From the NCBI RefSeq assembly GCF_030013595.1, contig NZ_CP122768.1: a stretch of DNA of 64,000 bases. One strand, written 5' to 3'. The notes below the pieces were generated by a model, which saw nothing but the letters and a program-made list of their open reading frames with translations, did not search any database and had not been told where the DNA came from. Positions 47,534 to 54,712 of this stretch are shown piece after piece (position 1 is the stretch's first letter; every line of letters begins with the position of its first letter). Source of the stretch: Escherichia coli (GTDB lineage: Bacteria > Pseudomonadota > Gammaproteobacteria > Enterobacterales > Enterobacteriaceae). Both the position numbers and the translations under genes were made by a program.

Positions 47534-49612
47534 TTAAATCAATGCCGATTTATCAATTCCCAGCCGCTTCATCCGTGACAGCAGGGTCGTGCGTTTCAGC
47601 CCCAGACGTTGCGCAGCGCCTTTAGGCCCGGCAACCACGCCGTTGGTTTCTTTCAGCACGCGCACAATCAACTGATATTCATCTTCGCCCTCCTGGGCGA
47701 CAACCGTTGCGGCAGGCGGCGTTTCAGGCTCCGGTAAAGCAATATCTGGCAATGACAGCTGCAGCACGTTGCCGCGTGTTAGCAATACTGCGCGCTCAAT
47801 GACGTTTTCCAGTTCGCGTACGTTACCCGGCCACTCCATGTTGCTCAAGGTGCGCAGCGTCTCGGCAGGAATGCTGTCGATATTGCGCCCCAGACGACGG
47901 GCAATTTTGAAGGTAAAGGCTTTCGCCAGCAGCGGAATATCTTCCGGACGCTCGCGTAGTGGCGGCAGGTGAATCGGGAATACGTTCAGGCGGTAATAGA
48001 GATCGCTACGGAACTCTCGGTCGGCGACCATTTTTTTCAGATCGCGGTTAGTTGCGGCAATTAAACGTACGTCCGTCTGAATGATTTTGTTGCTGCCGAG
48101 ACGTTCAAACTCCTGTTCCTGCAATACACGCAGCAACTTCGGCTGTAACTCCAGTGGCATATCGCCCACTTCGTCGAGGAACAGAGAGCTTTTATCCGCC
48201 AGTTCAAAACGACCAATGCGCTGGGCGCTGGCACCGGTAAAAGCCCCACGCTCATGACCAAACAGATCGCTCTCCAGCAATCCGGCAGGCATCGCCGCGC
48301 AGTTCATTTTGACCATGCGGCGATTATTACGCCCACTGAGATTATGGATAGCACGGGCAATCAGCTCTTTACCCGTGCCAGTTTCACCGAGGATCAGCAC
48401 GGTACTGTCACTTTGCGCCACCATTTCAACTTGTTTAAGCACGCTGTACATGGCTTCGCTGCGGCCAATAATCTCGCCAAATTCACTATCAACATTGTTG
48501 AGCTGCTCGGTCAGGGCGAGGTTTTCATCAACCAGCCGTTCTTTCAGACGATGGATTTCCTGATAGGCGAGGGCGTTATCGACAGCGATTGCCACACGTT
48601 CGGCAATCTGGCGCAGTAAATTCAGATTGGTAGTGGTAAAGACTTTCTCTTCGCATTGCGCCAGTTTCAGCACGCCCAGCATGGTGTCGCCAGACATCAG
48701 CGGTAACAGGCACAAGGTTTGAATCTGGTTGCCCCAGGTGTCGAACAACATGCGTTCATAGGGGGCTAAATCGTCCCGCTCGTGGAGATTAATCAACAGC
48801 ATCTCTTTACTTTTGAAGACGCGTTCGGTGAGGGTTCCGGCTTCATCGACTTCGCTCTGTTCGTGGGCGGGATGCTGTTTATCAAGATAGTGAGTGGAGT
48901 AGATGTTGAGTTTGTTTTTACGGTGGCTGCGTAAGACGATGCTGATATCGTCAATGTCGAAGTAGTAATGGATTTCTTTGGCGACTTCGCTGACCAGTTC
49001 GTCCATATCCAGGCGGGAAAGCACCGCGTTGGTAATGGCAACCAGGATGCGGAAGTTATCGCGTTCCCGGCATAACAACTCATAGTCGACATTGTTAACG
49101 ACGCGGCTCTGGATTTGTTCGGTGACGACAGAAACGATCTGCGTAAATGTTTGCAGACGATTGAACTCTTTTTCGCTCCAGGGGCGATCGTCATAACGAA
49201 TAAATTCACAGCCACCAAAAATATGCCCTTCCGCCGCCAGTGGCATCAGGCAATAGTGACCAAATTTGGGGTATAGCCCACCTGCGGCCAGCTGCGGCCA
49301 GGTTTCACAAAATTCTTCGTAACTGCAATGCAGCGTATCAGGGCGCGACAAAATGCTGCGTACCGGACCGTGTGCCAGAACAGTTTCGTCTTCATATTTA
49401 ATGGGGGTGTCTTTTTCACGCGACGCGTAATAAGACGCACGTTGAGTCTGCGCTTGCCACAACACAATAGCCGCGTTGTCGGCGAGCGCAGAACGCTTTA
49501 CCAGTAGCGAAAGAGCCTCACACAGCGAGGCCAGATCGGGCTGCTGCAATAGTGTCCGAGTGATGTCGAACAACCCTTGTTGTCCGAGATCACTCATCGG
49601 TGTATATGACAT
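47534..49612 (-). CDS. fhlA: Formate hydrogenlyase transcriptional activator (sigma54-dependent, GAF + AAA+ + HTH)
   Basis: 692-aa MSYTPMSDLGQQGLFDITRTLLQQPDLASL..., sigma54-interaction motifs GETGTGKE and GAFTGA. Confidence 0.96.
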   Translation of the reverse strand: MSYTPMSDLGQQGLFDITRTLLQQPDLASLCEALSLLVKRSALADNAAIVLWQAQTQRASYYASREKDTPIKYEDETVLAHGPVRSILSRPDTLHCSYEEFCETWPQLAAGGLYPKFGHYCLMPLAAEGHIFGGCEFIRYDDRPWSEKEFNRLQTFTQIVSVVTEQIQSRVVNNVDYELLCRERDNFRILVAITNAVLSRLDMDELVSEVAKEIHYYFDIDDISIVLRSHRKNKLNIYSTHYLDKQHPAHEQSEVDEAGTLTERVFKSKEMLLINLHERDDLAPYERMLFDTWGNQIQTLCLLPLMSGDTMLGVLKLAQCEEKVFTTTNLNLLRQIAERVAIAVDNALAYQEIHRLKERLVDENLALTEQLNNVDSEFGEIIGRSEAMYSVLKQVEMVAQSDSTVLILGETGTGKELIARAIHNLSGRNNRRMVKMNCAAMPAGLLESDLFGHERGAFTGASAQRIGRFELADKSSLFLDEVGDMPLELQPKLLRVLQEQEFERLGSNKIIQTDVRLIAATNRDLKKMVADREFRSDLYYRLNVFPIHLPPLRERPEDIPLLAKAFTFKIARRLGRNIDSIPAETLRTLSNMEWPGNVRELENVIERAVLLTRGNVLQLSLPDIALPEPETPPAATVVAQEGEDEYQLIVRVLKETNGVVAGPKGAAQRLGLKRTTLLSRMKRLGIDKSALI

Positions 49613-49685
49613 TTTGTTCTTCCAGGAAAGCACCGCAAAGCGGTGCAAAAGGTCATTGACTAACTATAGGAGATTTAGAATTTTA

Positions 49686-52086: not shown

Positions 52087-52949
52087 CGCTGTGTCTCCAG
52101 CCAGTTCAGCCACTGGTCCATCCCTTCGCCGCTGGTGGCGGAAATAAGGATGATTTCAATTTCTGGATTGACTTCGCGGGCGCAGGCGATGCACTTCTCA
52201 ACGTCAAAGTTGAGATACGGCAGCAGGTCAACTTTGTTGAGCAGCATCAGTGAGGCGGCGGCAAACATATGCGGATATTTCAGCGGTTTGTCTTCACCTT
52301 CGGTAACGGAAAGCACCGCCACTTTGTGTTTTTCACCGAGATCGAAGCTGGCCGGGCACACGAGGTTGCCGACGTTTTCGATAAACAGAATACCGTTATC
52401 GTCCAGTGGCAGGCGCGGTGCGGCGTCGGCAATCATCTGTGCGTCAAGATGGCAGCCTTTACCGGTATTCACCTGAATCGCTGGTGTGCCGGTAGCGCGA
52501 ATGCGTGCGGCATCGTTCACGGTTTGCTGATCGCCTTCAATAACCGCGCACGGAACGCTGTCTTTCAGGCGCATTAAGGTTTCCGTCAGCAGGGTGGTTT
52601 TACCGGAACCAGGGCTGGAAACCAGGTTGAGCACCAGTTGCTTGCGGGCAGCAAAGCGCGCGCGGTTGCGTTCAGCCAGACGGTTATTTTTGTCCAGCAC
52701 GTCAATTTCGACTTCCAGCATCCGACGCTGGCTCATGCCCGGCGCGTGAGTACCCGCTTCGCCATGACCGTAATGCAGGTCGCCTTCTTCAGTCTGGCTG
52801 GGGGTAAATTCAGGCGCTTTAATGCCGGTGATTTTCATCTTCGGGCGTGCCGCCGGGGCAAATGGCGCGCTACGAAACGCGGAATGAGGGTTATGTTCAT
52901 CACCCTCGATATACAGGTTGCCTTCACCGCAACCGCATGTTGTACACAT
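52077..52949 (-). CDS. hypB: Hydrogenase nickel incorporation GTPase HypB
   Basis: 290-aa [10 protein letters not shown]... with G-domain GSGKTT. Confidence 0.95.
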
Positions 52950-52952
52950 CGC

Positions 52953-53303
52953 TCACTCCTGGTCTATTTCTATCCGCCGAATCTGTAAACCGTCGTCTGC
53001 CACAATCTGTAGCATGTCACCATGACACTGTGGACAGCGGCGGACGCGCTGGGTCAGTAGCGTCACATACTGTTGGCATGTTTCACACCAGCATTCGGCC
53101 TCTTGTTCTTCGAGGTGCAGTTTACAACCTTCCGCCACGCTGCCGCGGCAAACCAGATCAAAACAAAAGGCAAGAGAGCTGGTTTCGACACAAGAAAATG
53201 CGCCAATTTTGAGCCAGACCCCAGTTACGCGTTTTGCGCCGTGTTTTGCGGCCTGCTGTTCGATCAATTCCAGTGCCCGTTGGCAGAGGGTTATTTCGTG
53301 CAT
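52953..53303 (-). CDS. hypA: Hydrogenase nickel insertion protein HypA
   Basis: 116-aa MHEITLCQRALELIEQQA..., CxxC...CxxC zinc site. Confidence 0.9.
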   Translation of the reverse strand: MHEITLCQRALELIEQQAAKHGAKRVTGVWLKIGAFSCVETSSLAFCFDLVCRGSVAEGCKLHLEEQEAECWCETCQQYVTLLTQRVRRCPQCHGDMLQIVADDGLQIRRIEIDQE

Positions 53304-53333
53304 ATCGCCTCCCATTAACTATTGCCAGCTACA

Positions 53334-53349
53334 AGCAATAATTGTGCCA
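53334..53349 (-). promoter_or_regulatory. Candidate sigma54 promoter for hyp operon (TGGCAC-N5-TTGCT on minus strand)
   Basis: Reverse complement of 53334..53349 reads tggcacaattattgct, the -24/-12 consensus; about 30 nt upstream of hypA ATG. Confidence 0.5.
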
Positions 53350-53462
53350 GTGTTGATTATCCCTGCGGTGAATAATGTCGATGATGTCGAAATGACACGT
53401 CGACACGGCGACGAAATTCATCTTTAGCTTAAAAATCGTTTTAATAACAATGAATTAAAAGT

Positions 53463-53478
53463 TGGCACAGAAAATGCT
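53463..53478 (+). promoter_or_regulatory. Candidate sigma54 promoter for hyc operon (TGGCAC-N5-ATGCT)
   Basis: tggcacagaaaatgct with GG-N10-GC spacing, about 37 nt upstream of hycA ATG. Confidence 0.5.
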
Positions 53479-53514
53479 TAAAGCTGGCATCTCTGTTAAA
53501 CGGGTAACCTGACA

Positions 53515-53976
53515 ATGACTATTTGGGAAATAAGCGAGAAAGCCGATTACATCGCACAGCGGCATCGTCGCCTACAGGACCAGTGGCACATCTACTGCAA
53601 TTCGCTGGTTCAGGGGATCACGTTATCGAAAGCGCGCCTGCATCACGCCATGAGCTGCGCGCCGGACAAAGAACTCTGTTTCGTCCTTTTTGAACATTTT
53701 CGCATTTACGTCACCCTGGCGGATGGCTTTAACAGCCACACCATCGAGTATTACGTCGAAACAAAAGATGGTGAAGACAAACAGCGGATTGCGCAGGCGC
53801 AACTGAGCATTGACGGCATGATTGATGGCAAGGTCAACATCCGCGATCGCGAACAGGTTCTGGAACACTATCTCGAAAAAATCGCTGGCGTTTACGACAG
53901 CTTATACACCGCCATTGAAAACAATGTGCCGGTGAATTTAAGCCAACTGGTAAAGGGACAAAGCCCGGCAGCATGA
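53515..53976 (+). CDS. hycA: Formate hydrogenlyase regulatory protein HycA
   Basis: 153-aa MTIWEISEKADYIAQRHRRLQDQWHIY... Confidence 0.9.
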   Translation: MTIWEISEKADYIAQRHRRLQDQWHIYCNSLVQGITLSKARLHHAMSCAPDKELCFVLFEHFRIYVTLADGFNSHTIEYYVETKDGEDKQRIAQAQLSIDGMIDGKVNIRDREQVLEHYLEKIAGVYDSLYTAIENNVPVNLSQLVKGQSPAA

Positions 53977-54100
53977 GCTGAGGCTTTGCCCGTTTTGCAG
54001 GCGTTACGCCTGTTTGGGGATGGGCGTGTCGATGAGTGTCGAAAATGACATTTCATCGGCATGTTTTCGTCAAAAATGACAATCACCTGAGGAATGCCTG

Positions 54101-54712
54101 GTGAATCGTTTTGTAATTGCTGACTCCACGCTCTGTATCGGCTGCCACACCTGTGAGGCCGCCTGTTCAGAGACGCATCGCCAGCACGGCCTGCAATCAA
54201 TGCCGCGCCTGCGAGTGATGCTCAATGAAAAAGAATCTGCGCCGCAGCTCTGTCACCACTGTGAAGATGCGCCCTGCGCGGTGGTCTGCCCGGTTAACGC
54301 CATCACCCGCGTTGATGGGGCCGTGCAGTTGAATGAAAGTCTGTGCGTAAGCTGCAAACTGTGCGGCATCGCCTGCCCGTTTGGCGCAATTGAATTTTCC
54401 GGCAGCCGTCCGCTGGATATTCCGGCAAACGCCAATACCCCGAAAGCGCCACCGGCACCGCCTGCTCCGGCGCGTGTCAGCACATTGCTTGACTGGGTGC
54501 CAGGTATTCGCGCGATCGCCGTCAAATGTGACCTTTGTAGCTTTGATGAACAAGGTCCGGCCTGCGTGCGGATGTGCCCGACTAAAGCCCTGCATCTGGT
54601 GGATAACACCGATATCGCCCGCGTCAGCAAACGTAAGCGTGAGCTGACTTTTAACACGGACTTTGGCGATCTCACCTTGTTTCAGCAGGCTCAAAGTGGA
54701 GAGGCTAAATGA
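54101..54712 (+). CDS. hycB: Formate hydrogenlyase 4Fe-4S ferredoxin subunit
   Basis: 203-aa ORF with four CxxCxxCxxxCP motifs. Confidence 0.95.
   Translation: MNRFVIADSTLCIGCHTCEAACSETHRQHGLQSMPRLRVMLNEKESAPQLCHHCEDAPCAVVCPVNAITRVDGAVQLNESLCVSCKLCGIACPFGAIEFSGSRPLDIPANANTPKAPPAPPAPARVSTLLDWVPGIRAIAVKCDLCSFDEQGPACVRMCPTKALHLVDNTDIARVSKRKRELTFNTDFGDLTLFQQAQSGEAK

What the first reader, a model, noticed from the sequence alone, without database searches (positions are those of the whole stretch)
53304..53514. Divergent hyp/hyc control region with two opposed sigma54 promoter candidates
TGGCAC-N5-TTGC-type elements face hypA (minus strand, 53334..53349) and hycA (plus strand, 53463..53478) across a 210-bp spacer that would hold the FhlA upstream activating sites. 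This matches the known FhlA/formate regulon architecture and supports the annotation.
Basis: partly seen in the sequence, partly recalled or inferred. Interest (0 to 1): 0.15.

Follow-up and report, generated by a model that had tools for sequence, protein, structure and literature searches.

The report
Known E. coli hyp/hyc sigma-54 promoters
This is the textbook control region between the E. coli hydrogenase-maturation (hyp) and formate-hydrogenlyase (hyc) operons, with two back-to-back sigma-54 promoters that are real, conserved and already described, so it is ordinary.

Summary
The 211-bp hypA-hycA spacer (53304-53514) holds a perfect TGGCAC-N5-TTGC element on the minus strand (53335-53349, facing hypA). 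It also holds TGGCAC-N5-ATGC on the plus strand (53463-53477, facing hycA).

The window is E. coli. [quoted passage not shown] Both sites are listed as experimentally confirmed promoters.

With a matrix trained on 40 other E. coli sites, they rank first and third of all positions in the 64-kb window. Both are kept in all 81 Enterobacteriaceae loci compared: the -24 TGGCA is 100% conserved while the spacers vary.

The spacer holds one FhlA upstream activating sequence (UAS1, 53376-53403) and an IHF-like site (53445-53457). A second, near-identical and more strongly conserved FhlA site cluster (UAS2, 54027-54081) lies outside it, between hycA and hycB.

A third sigma-54-like motif inside hycA (53583-53599) is a by-product of coding for W-x-x-Y-C-N.

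The mapped start sites in the primary papers could not be read. Verdict: already known, low interest.

The parts
53304..53514 (.). hypA-hycA intergenic control region (211 bp)
   Evidence: Lies between the hypA ATG (53303, minus) and the hycA ATG (53515). The divergent arrangement is kept in 80 of 80 other Enterobacteriaceae loci, with a spacer of 188-223 bp.
53334..53350 (-). hyp sigma-54 promoter 17-mer CTGGCACAATTATTGCT (GG at 53347-53348, GC at 53335-53336)
   Evidence: Exact TGGCAC-N5-TTGC. Scores 20.8 bits, the top of the window. Identical to K-12 ChIP-seq site OS28, which has the highest occupancy (201) and PSSM score (14.09) of the intergenic sites in Table 1 of PMC4591121. The -24 TGGCA is 100% conserved and the -12 block 91% conserved in 81 loci, against 23% for the spacer.
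53323..53323 (-). predicted hyp transcription start (19 nt after the motif centre), 20 nt before the hypA ATG
   Evidence: Uses the rule from PMC4591121. It gives the same 20-nt distance as is listed there for K-12 hypA. This is a prediction, not a mapped start read here.
53308..53313 (-). hypA Shine-Dalgarno GGGAGG
   Evidence: Read directly from the sequence. It lies 4 nt before the ATG at 53303.
53376..53403 (.). UAS1: FhlA upstream activating sequence (TGTCGATGATGTCGAAATGACACGTCGA)
   Evidence: Second-best hit of the published FhlA matrix in the whole window, at 16.1 bits. Mean identity is 82% across 81 loci, against 34-45% for the flanking spacer. Its centre is about 100 bp upstream of the predicted hyc start.
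53445..53457 (+). IHF-like site TAACAATGAATTA (WATCAANNNNTTR with 1 mismatch)
   Evidence: Read from the sequence. The CAA-N4-TTA core is conserved. Other genera have a perfect AATCAATGAATTA at a fixed 25-26 bp before the hyc motif centre. IHF binding itself is recalled from the literature and was not tested here.
53462..53478 (+). hyc sigma-54 promoter 17-mer TTGGCACAGAAAATGCT (GG at 53464-53465, GC at 53476-53477)
   Evidence: Scores 15.0 bits. K-12 ChIP-seq site OS27 differs by one spacer base. The -24 TGGCA is 100% conserved and the -12 TGCTT 98% conserved in 81 loci.
53489..53489 (+). predicted hyc transcription start, 26 nt before the hycA ATG
   Evidence: Same rule and same 26-nt distance as is listed for K-12 hycA. 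This is a prediction.
54027..54081 (.). UAS2: second FhlA site cluster in the hycA-hycB spacer (TGTCGATGAGTGTCGAAAATGACA ... CGTCAAAAATGACA)
   Evidence: 54037-54050 gives the maximum possible FhlA matrix score of 17.1 bits, the best in the window, and 54068-54081 scores 11.8 bits. The core matches UAS1 at 22 of 22 bases with two 1-nt gaps, and 0 of 2000 shuffles reach that score. TTTCGTCAAAAATGACA (54065-54081) is invariant in 81 of 81 loci.
52953..53303 (-). hypA coding sequence (first gene of hypABCDE-fhlA)
53515..53976 (+). hycA coding sequence (first gene of hycABCDEFGHI; anti-activator of FhlA)
47534..49612 (-). fhlA, the gene for the enhancer-binding activator, downstream of hypE on the hyp side
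   Evidence: RefSeq annotation of a locus identical to the window over the 901 bp compared. The ORF is at 47534..49648 in the window.

Best explanation
This is the divergent control region of the E. coli formate regulon. RNA polymerase carrying sigma-54 sits in closed complexes on two opposed -24/-12 promoters. P(hyp) is at 53334-53350 on the minus strand and P(hyc) is at 53462-53478 on the plus strand.

Neither promoter fires on its own. The formate-sensing AAA+ activator FhlA is encoded at the end of the hyp side (47534-49612). It binds TGTC-N5/6-GACA-type boxes and uses ATP hydrolysis to open the complexes.

UAS1 (53376-53403) lies about 100 bp upstream of the hyc start. An IHF-like bend site (53445-53457) sits between them, so UAS1 is the enhancer for P(hyc). 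UAS2 (54027-54081, between hycA and hycB) is a second enhancer. From recalled literature it is the one needed for P(hyp), about 730 bp away.

The outputs form two feedback loops. The hyp transcript can read through to fhlA (positive loop). The first hyc gene, hycA, antagonises FhlA (negative loop).

Shown here: the motifs, their rank within the window, their identity to the K-12 ChIP-seq sites, and their conservation and spacing. Inferred or recalled: FhlA and IHF occupancy, the exact start sites, and which UAS serves hyp.
For: - Identity of the locus.
- Sigma-54 motifs; matrix rank.
- Match to K-12 ChIP-seq: hyp identical and hyc one spacer base different from sites OS28 and OS27, both marked as confirmed promoters.
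- Salmonella: both operons are sigma-54-dependent (5.6-fold and 26-fold) and have ChIP-chip sites 114 bp apart, the same spacing as here. gSELEX also places RpoN holoenzyme in this spacer.
- Conservation in 81 loci: -24 TGGCA 100% in both promoters, -12 blocks 91% and 98%, spacers 23% and 53%, UAS1 core 82%, whole spacer 61%.
- FhlA matrix (PMC7658346): its two best hits in 64 kb are UAS2 (17.1 bits) and UAS1 (16.1 bits). The two share a 22-nt core. UAS2 box C is invariant in 81 of 81 loci.
- Helical phasing: the UAS1 anchor sits 72-74, 62-65 or 51 bp from the hyc motif centre across genera, in steps of about 10-11 bp. The IHF-like site stays 25-26 bp from that centre.
Against: - The primary start-site mapping and footprinting papers (Lutz 1990; Schlensog 1994; Hopper 1994; Leonhartsberger 2000) could not be read. 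The starts given are therefore predictions from the motif. The UAS2-to-hyp assignment rests on memory.
- The FhlA matrix was built from 13 characterised sites that probably include these, so its top scores are partly circular. Conservation is the independent support.
- The same matrix scores the K-12 fdhF, hydN and hyfA upstream regions only 7-10 bits. The FhlA motif is therefore loosely defined.
- The idealised 16-mer CATTTCGTACGAAATG has no match with up to 3 mismatches in the window.
- UAS1 keeps a fixed distance to P(hyp) (53-55 bp in 57 loci), so a role of UAS1 at hyp cannot be excluded.
Confidence: 0.93

Rival explanations
1. UAS1 is a shared bidirectional enhancer that activates both promoters from within the spacer. 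UAS2 is auxiliary or serves something else.
For: The distance from UAS1 to the hyp motif is almost invariant across genera: 53-55 bp from the anchor in 57 loci, and 65 bp in 12 loci. UAS1 lies between the two promoters.
Against: UAS1 is centred only about 66 bp from the predicted hyp start and about 30-40 bp from the -24 element. That is short for looping by an enhancer-binding protein without a bend site, and no IHF-like site lies on that side. UAS2 is more strongly conserved than UAS1 (17 invariant bases in 81 of 81 loci), so it must have a function. Recalled literature assigns UAS2 to hyp, but this was not verified here.
Confidence: 0.2
2. The two TGGCAC-N5-TTGC-like strings are chance matches with no promoter function.
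For: The bare pattern is not enriched in the window. There is 1 exact match against 0.31 expected, and 11 matches with up to one mismatch against 7.9 expected.
Against: They rank first and third of all positions by a matrix trained on other sites. They are correctly oriented, 20 and 26 nt before the start codons. They are conserved in 81 of 81 loci while their spacers vary. They are the same as, or one base from, strong K-12 ChIP-seq sites.
Confidence: 0.01
3. The sigma-54-like motif inside hycA (53583-53599, GTGGCACATCTACTGCA) is a third working promoter or a holoenzyme parking site. It would drive or modulate hycB-I independently of hycA.
For: It scores 16.0 bits, higher than P(hyc) in this window. 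It is the best plus-strand sigma-54 hit within hycA, at the same codon position, in 81 of 81 loci, with a median of 14.1 bits. Intragenic sigma-54 binding is common in E. coli (PMC4591121).
Against: Its score equals what random synonymous recoding of the conserved W-x-x-Y-C-N peptide gives: observed minus expected is -0.02 bits, and the median percentile is 0.50. The Cys codon that supplies the -12 GC is TGC:TGT = 62:19, the same as at Cys48. It is not among the sites in the main tables of PMC4591121, where hycA appears only as OS27.
Confidence: 0.08

Closest known systems
E. coli K-12 hycA and hypA sigma-54 promoters (ChIP-seq sites OS27 and OS28; FhlA/formate regulon)
   Same: It is the same locus and gene order. 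The hyp 17-mer is identical. The spacing between the two -24 elements is the same, as are the predicted start-to-ATG distances of 26 and 20 nt. UAS1 is identical.
   Different: There are four base differences from MG1655 in the spacer: 53438-53439 GT instead of TC, 53452 G instead of A, and 53470 G instead of A. All lie in the AT-rich/IHF region or in the hyc -24/-12 spacer. None touches GG, GC or UAS1. The spacer change lowers the hyc matrix score from 16.6 to 15.0 bits and is shared with E. albertii and E. whittamii.
Salmonella Typhimurium LT2 hycA (STM2853) and hypA (STM2854) sigma-54 promoters
   Same: The arrangement is divergent, with 114 bp between the starts of the two TGGCA elements. 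Both sites are bound in ChIP-chip, and both operons are sigma-54-dependent.
   Different: The Salmonella sites have TGGCAT instead of TGGCAC, and the spacer bases differ.
Other FhlA-dependent promoters of E. coli (fdhF, hydN-hypF, hyfA)
   Same: Each has a -24/-12 element about 20-40 nt before the gene, with TGTC/GACA-type boxes about 100 bp upstream.
   Different: Those are single, unidirectional promoters. Their FhlA boxes score only 7-10 bits with the published matrix, against 16-17 bits here. Only the hyp/hyc locus has two opposed promoters and a second UAS beyond the first gene.

Membership tests
sigma-54 (RpoN) -24/-12 promoter | GG and GC dinucleotides exactly 10 bp apart in a TGGCAC-N5-TTGCW context | tested here: met
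   The hyp element is exact. The hyc element has ATGC instead of TTGC. Matrix scores are 20.8 and 15.0 bits, against a training range of 9.0-19.0 bits.
sigma-54 (RpoN) -24/-12 promoter | Occupied by sigma-54 holoenzyme in vivo | tested here: met
   Tested by sequence identity only. The hyp 17-mer is identical to the K-12 ChIP-seq site (occupancy score 201) and the hyc 17-mer is one spacer base from its site (occupancy score 91). Occupancy in this strain was not measured.
sigma-54 (RpoN) -24/-12 promoter | Transcription starts about 12 nt after the GC, as mapped experimentally | not testable with these tools
   The primary mapping papers are not held. PMC4591121 marks both promoters as experimentally confirmed in EcoCyc. 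The predicted starts are 53323 and 53489.
sigma-54 (RpoN) -24/-12 promoter | Correct orientation and short distance to a downstream gene | tested here: met
   The predicted start lies 20 nt (hypA) and 26 nt (hycA) before the ATG. Across 81 loci the range is 18-24 nt (one locus at 32) for hypA and 24-27 nt for hycA.
sigma-54 (RpoN) -24/-12 promoter | Core bases conserved in orthologous loci while the spacer drifts | tested here: met
   -24 TGGCA is 100% conserved in both promoters. The -12 blocks are 91% and 98% conserved, and the spacers 23% and 53%.
FhlA (formate regulon) enhancer-dependent control region | FhlA-type upstream activating sequence about 100 bp upstream of the promoter | tested here: met
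   Met for hyc: UAS1 (53376-53403) is centred about 100 bp upstream, scores 16.1 bits and is conserved. For hyp the result is inconclusive: UAS1 is at about -66 and UAS2 at about -730.
   The best FhlA matrix hit in the window, and an invariant third box, lie at 54027-54081 between hycA and hycB.
FhlA (formate regulon) enhancer-dependent control region | IHF bend site between the UAS and the promoter | tested here: inconclusive
   TAACAATGAATTA at 53445-53457 matches WATCAANNNNTTR with 1 mismatch. Its core is conserved and its position is fixed relative to P(hyc). Binding was not tested.
FhlA (formate regulon) enhancer-dependent control region | The activator gene fhlA and the anti-activator gene hycA are linked to the promoters | tested here: met
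   fhlA lies downstream of hypE on the hyp side, and hycA is the first hyc gene.
FhlA (formate regulon) enhancer-dependent control region | Formate- and FhlA-dependent induction | not testable with these tools
   This needs expression assays. The literature cited in PMC4591121 and PMC11841067 states it for K-12.

The most novel reading that the evidence does not exclude
The motif inside hycA (53583-53599) scores 16 bits, higher than the hyc promoter itself. It could be bound by sigma-54 holoenzyme in vivo but hidden under the two very strong neighbouring ChIP-seq peaks. If so, it could act as a third FhlA-responsive start or as a roadblock, uncoupling hycB-I expression from hycA. UAS2 lies about 440 bp downstream of it.
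Probability: 0.08. Interest if true: 0.4.

Novelty: already known. Interest (0 to 1): 0.07.

Why it matters
It confirms the annotation of this part of the window as the E. coli formate-regulon core (hypABCDE-fhlA and hycABCDEFGHI). It also shows that the strain carries intact control elements.

There is nothing new for the field. The comparative details are refinements of a known architecture:
- indels between UAS1 and the hyc promoter come in steps of about 10-11 bp;
- a 17-nt box in UAS2 is invariant in 81 of 81 loci;
- the motif inside hycA is a by-product of coding.

Tried and rejected
1. The idealised FhlA palindrome CATTTCGTACGAAATG (quoted in PMC4987338) gave no match with up to 3 mismatches in the window. 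The published 14-column matrix was used instead.

2. My first recollection was that the hyp UAS lies inside hycA. I examined 53679-53715 (TTTCG-rich). The third codon positions there are not conserved, and the FhlA matrix gives only 9.7 bits. This was rejected in favour of the hycA-hycB spacer.

3. The sigma-54-like motif inside hycA was tested against synonymous recoding and rejected as a selected element.

4. An Rfam scan of 52800-54300 gave only a sub-threshold isrA hit (E = 0.53), taken as chance.

5. The sigma-70 and terminator scan gave one promoter-like and one terminator-like site, about what shuffles give. The terminator-like hairpin at 53398-53413 is simply the palindromic part of UAS1.

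6. A scan with the FNR consensus found no convincing site in hypA or the spacer with up to 2 mismatches.

7. Attempts to read the primary or review papers failed: PMC135417, PMC176951, PMC11575713, PMC148710, PMC3429621 and PMC4288677. The sigma-network supplements (PMC3923258) do not mention hycA or hypA.

8. MAFFT mis-registered UAS1 against UAS2. A local alignment was used instead.

Full report
**What is in the sequence.** Positions 53304-53514 are the 211-bp spacer between hypA and hycA. hypA is on the minus strand with its ATG at 53303. hycA is on the plus strand with its ATG at 53515. On the minus strand, 53349->53335 reads TGGCACAATTATTGC, an exact TGGCAC-N5-TTGC. On the plus strand, 53463-53477 reads TGGCACAGAAAATGC, which has one mismatch (A for the first T of TTGC).

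**Where the window comes from.** A 901-bp stretch around the spacer matches 5425 of 5426 complete E. coli genomes at 95% identity or more. RefSeq annotates hypA and hycA there. The neighbourhood is hypABCDE-fhlA on one side and hycABCDEFG... on the other. fhlA lies at 47534-49612 on the minus strand.

**Is it more than chance?**
- The bare pattern is not. There is 1 exact match in 64 kb against 0.31 expected, and 11 matches with up to one mismatch against 7.9 expected.
- I built a weight matrix from 40 other E. coli sigma-54 sites taken from Table 1 of PMC4591121, leaving out hycA and hypA.
- The hyp site scores 20.8 bits, above every training site. The hyc site scores 15.0 bits. A third site inside hycA scores 16.0 bits. 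These are the three best positions in the whole window.
- Shuffles give 0.2 hits of at least 16 bits and 0.9 hits of at least 14 bits.

**Comparison with K-12.**
- The spacer differs from MG1655 at four bases: 53438-53439, 53452 and 53470. None is in GG, GC or the activator site.
- Genome-wide ChIP-seq in K-12 lists CTGGCACAATTATTGCT for hypA, identical to the window. That site has an occupancy score of 201 and a PSSM of 14.09, the highest of the intergenic table.
- It lists TTGGCACAAAAAATGCT for hycA, one spacer base different, with an occupancy score of 91.
- Both are marked as promoters experimentally confirmed in EcoCyc.
- That paper predicts the start 19 nt after the motif centre. In the window this gives 53323 for hyp (20 nt before the ATG) and 53489 for hyc (26 nt before the ATG), the same distances as in K-12.
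- gSELEX also places RpoN holoenzyme in this spacer.
- In Salmonella both operons are sigma-54-dependent. The two ChIP-chip sites begin 114 bp apart, exactly as here.
- I could not read the original start-site mapping, so coincidence with mapped starts rests on those secondary sources.

**Conservation.**
- A scan of one genome per species returned 80 Enterobacteriaceae loci with a HycA relative. The genera include Escherichia, Salmonella, Citrobacter, Enterobacter, Klebsiella, Kluyvera, Raoultella and Kosakonia.
- All 80 have hypA divergent from hycA, with a spacer of 188-223 bp.
- In all 81 sequences the best sigma-54 hit on each strand of the spacer is the homologous site. The median is 18.3 bits for hyp and 15.3 bits for hyc. 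Predicted start-to-ATG distances are 18-24 nt (one locus at 32) and 24-27 nt.

Column identity to the window base across the 81 sequences:

| Element | Identity |
|---|---|
| -24 TGGCA, both promoters | 100% |
| -12 block, hyp | 91% |
| -12 block, hyc | 98% |
| -24/-12 spacer, hyp | 23% |
| -24/-12 spacer, hyc | 53% |
| Whole hypA-hycA spacer | 61% |

This is the signature of selected -24/-12 elements.

**The activator sites.**
- The most conserved other block in the spacer is 53376-53403, TGTCGATGATGTCGAAATGACACGTCGA, at 82% identity against 34-45% for its flanks.
- A published 14-column FhlA matrix (PMC7658346) gives its two best hits in the whole 64 kb at 54037-54050 and 53376-53389. The first, TGTCGAAAATGACA, scores 17.1 bits, the maximum possible. 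The second, TGTCGATGATGTCG, scores 16.1 bits.
It lies between hycA (which ends at 53976) and hycB (GTG at 54101).
- A local alignment shows that 53376-53397 and 54027-54050 share all 22 bases with two single-base gaps. None of 2000 shuffles reaches that score.
- The hycA-hycB spacer varies from 67 to 146 bp among genera but always keeps this element. A third box, TTTCGTCAAAAATGACA (54065-54081), is invariant in 81 of 81 loci.
- So there are two enhancers: UAS1 inside the spacer and UAS2 about 0.5 kb away.
- The matrix probably includes these very sites in its training set, so its scores are partly circular. The conservation is independent evidence.

**Geometry.**
- UAS1 is centred about 100 bp upstream of the predicted hyc start.
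- Between them lies TAACAATGAATTA (53445-53457). It matches the IHF consensus WATCAANNNNTTR with one mismatch.
- In other genera the site is a perfect AATCAATGAATTA, at a fixed 25-26 bp before the hyc motif centre.
- Across genera the distance from a UAS1 anchor (the end of CGAAATGACA) to the hyc motif centre falls into three classes: 72-74, 62-65 and 51 bp. The steps are about 10-11 bp, one helical turn.
- The distance from the anchor to the hyp motif centre is 53-55 bp in 57 loci and 65 bp in 12 loci.
- This fits an enhancer that must stay on one face of the helix relative to the hyc promoter. It is the expected behaviour of an enhancer-binding protein working with IHF.
- For hyp, UAS1 is only about 66 bp from the predicted start, with no bend site on that side.
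- My recollection of the literature (Schlensog 1994; Hopper 1994) is that the site between hycA and hycB is the one required for hyp. I could not verify this, and a contribution of UAS1 to hyp is not excluded.

**Mechanism.**
- Sigma-54 holoenzyme binds both promoters in closed complexes.
- FhlA, activated by formate, binds the UAS boxes and opens the complexes by ATP hydrolysis. IHF helps the UAS1-to-hyc loop.
- hyp transcription can continue into fhlA, giving positive feedback.
- hycA, the first hyc gene, counteracts FhlA, giving negative feedback.
- The sequence elements, their rank, their conservation and their phasing are shown here. Protein occupancy, the start sites and formate dependence are taken from the literature or inferred.

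**The third motif.**
- GTGGCACATCTACTGCA at 53583-53599, inside hycA, outscores the hyc promoter. It is the best plus-strand hit within hycA, at the same codon position, in all 81 loci.
- It encodes Q-W-H-I-Y-C-N. The Trp codon supplies the GG and the Cys codon supplies the GC.
- I enumerated all synonymous recodings of each species' peptide. The observed score equals the expected one: the mean difference is -0.02 bits and the median percentile is 0.50.
- The Cys codon is TGC:TGT = 62:19, the same as at another conserved Cys in the gene.
- The motif is therefore a by-product of the protein sequence.
- It is not in the ChIP-seq tables. It might still be bound, masked by its strong neighbours.

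**Verdict.** The one correction is that only one of the two FhlA enhancers lies in the spacer. This is a well-described system in its best-studied organism: already known, low interest.

Noticed in passing
window 53583-53599 (+), inside hycA: A third sigma-54-like motif, GTGGCACATCTACTGCA, scores 16.0 bits, higher than the hyc promoter. It sits at the same codon position in 81 of 81 loci. The synonymous-recoding test shows it is a by-product of coding for W-x-x-Y-C-N.
   Followed up: yes
window 54027-54081, hycA-hycB spacer: A second FhlA site cluster (UAS2) shares a 22-nt core with UAS1. It also has a 17-nt box, TTTCGTCAAAAATGACA, that is invariant in 81 of 81 Enterobacteriaceae loci and ends 8 nt before the hycB Shine-Dalgarno. 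Whether this invariance reflects only FhlA binding was not resolved.
   Followed up: partly
window 53323-53349 and 53463-53489: The two promoters form a 27-nt inverted repeat (78% complementary). It runs from the -24 element to the predicted +1 and includes a shared AGCTGGCA just before the start. The part after -12 is not conserved across genera. This looks like an Escherichia-specific similarity or an old inverted duplication.
   Followed up: partly
hypA-hycA spacer in loci L006-L085: Length changes between UAS1 and the hyc promoter fall into classes about 10-11 bp apart (anchor-to-motif distances of 72-74, 62-65 and 51 bp). The IHF-like site stays fixed relative to the promoter. This is consistent with helical phasing of the enhancer.
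   Followed up: partly
window 53438-53439, 53452, 53470: There are four base differences from K-12 MG1655 in the spacer. All lie in the AT-rich/IHF-like stretch or in the hyc -24/-12 spacer. The change at 53470 lowers the hyc matrix score from 16.6 to 15.0 bits and is shared with E. albertii and E. whittamii.
   Followed up: partly
window 53313-53315 (-): The ORF finder extends hypA to an in-frame ATG four codons upstream (a 120-aa ORF, 52953-53315). That ATG lies 8 nt after the predicted start, and the Shine-Dalgarno GGGAGG lies downstream of it within the extension. The annotated 116-aa start at 53303 is therefore the credible one.
   Followed up: yes
locus L001 535-2613 (window 47534-49612): RefSeq record NZ_CM149870.1 gives the formate hydrogenlyase activator the gene symbol flhA and the product name 'FlhA' instead of fhlA/FhlA. 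This confuses it with the flagellar export gene.
   Followed up: no
window 53997-54014: A GC-rich hairpin (CAGGCG-TTA-CGCCTG) lies just after the hycA stop and before UAS2. Several other genera have different GC-rich palindromes at the same place (alignment). This could be a conserved structure without a conserved sequence, such as a partial terminator or an mRNA stabiliser.
   Followed up: no
window 53490-53514: The 25-nt hycA leader is unusually conserved for non-coding sequence. Its mean identity is 76%, against 61% for the whole spacer. No explanation was sought.
   Followed up: no
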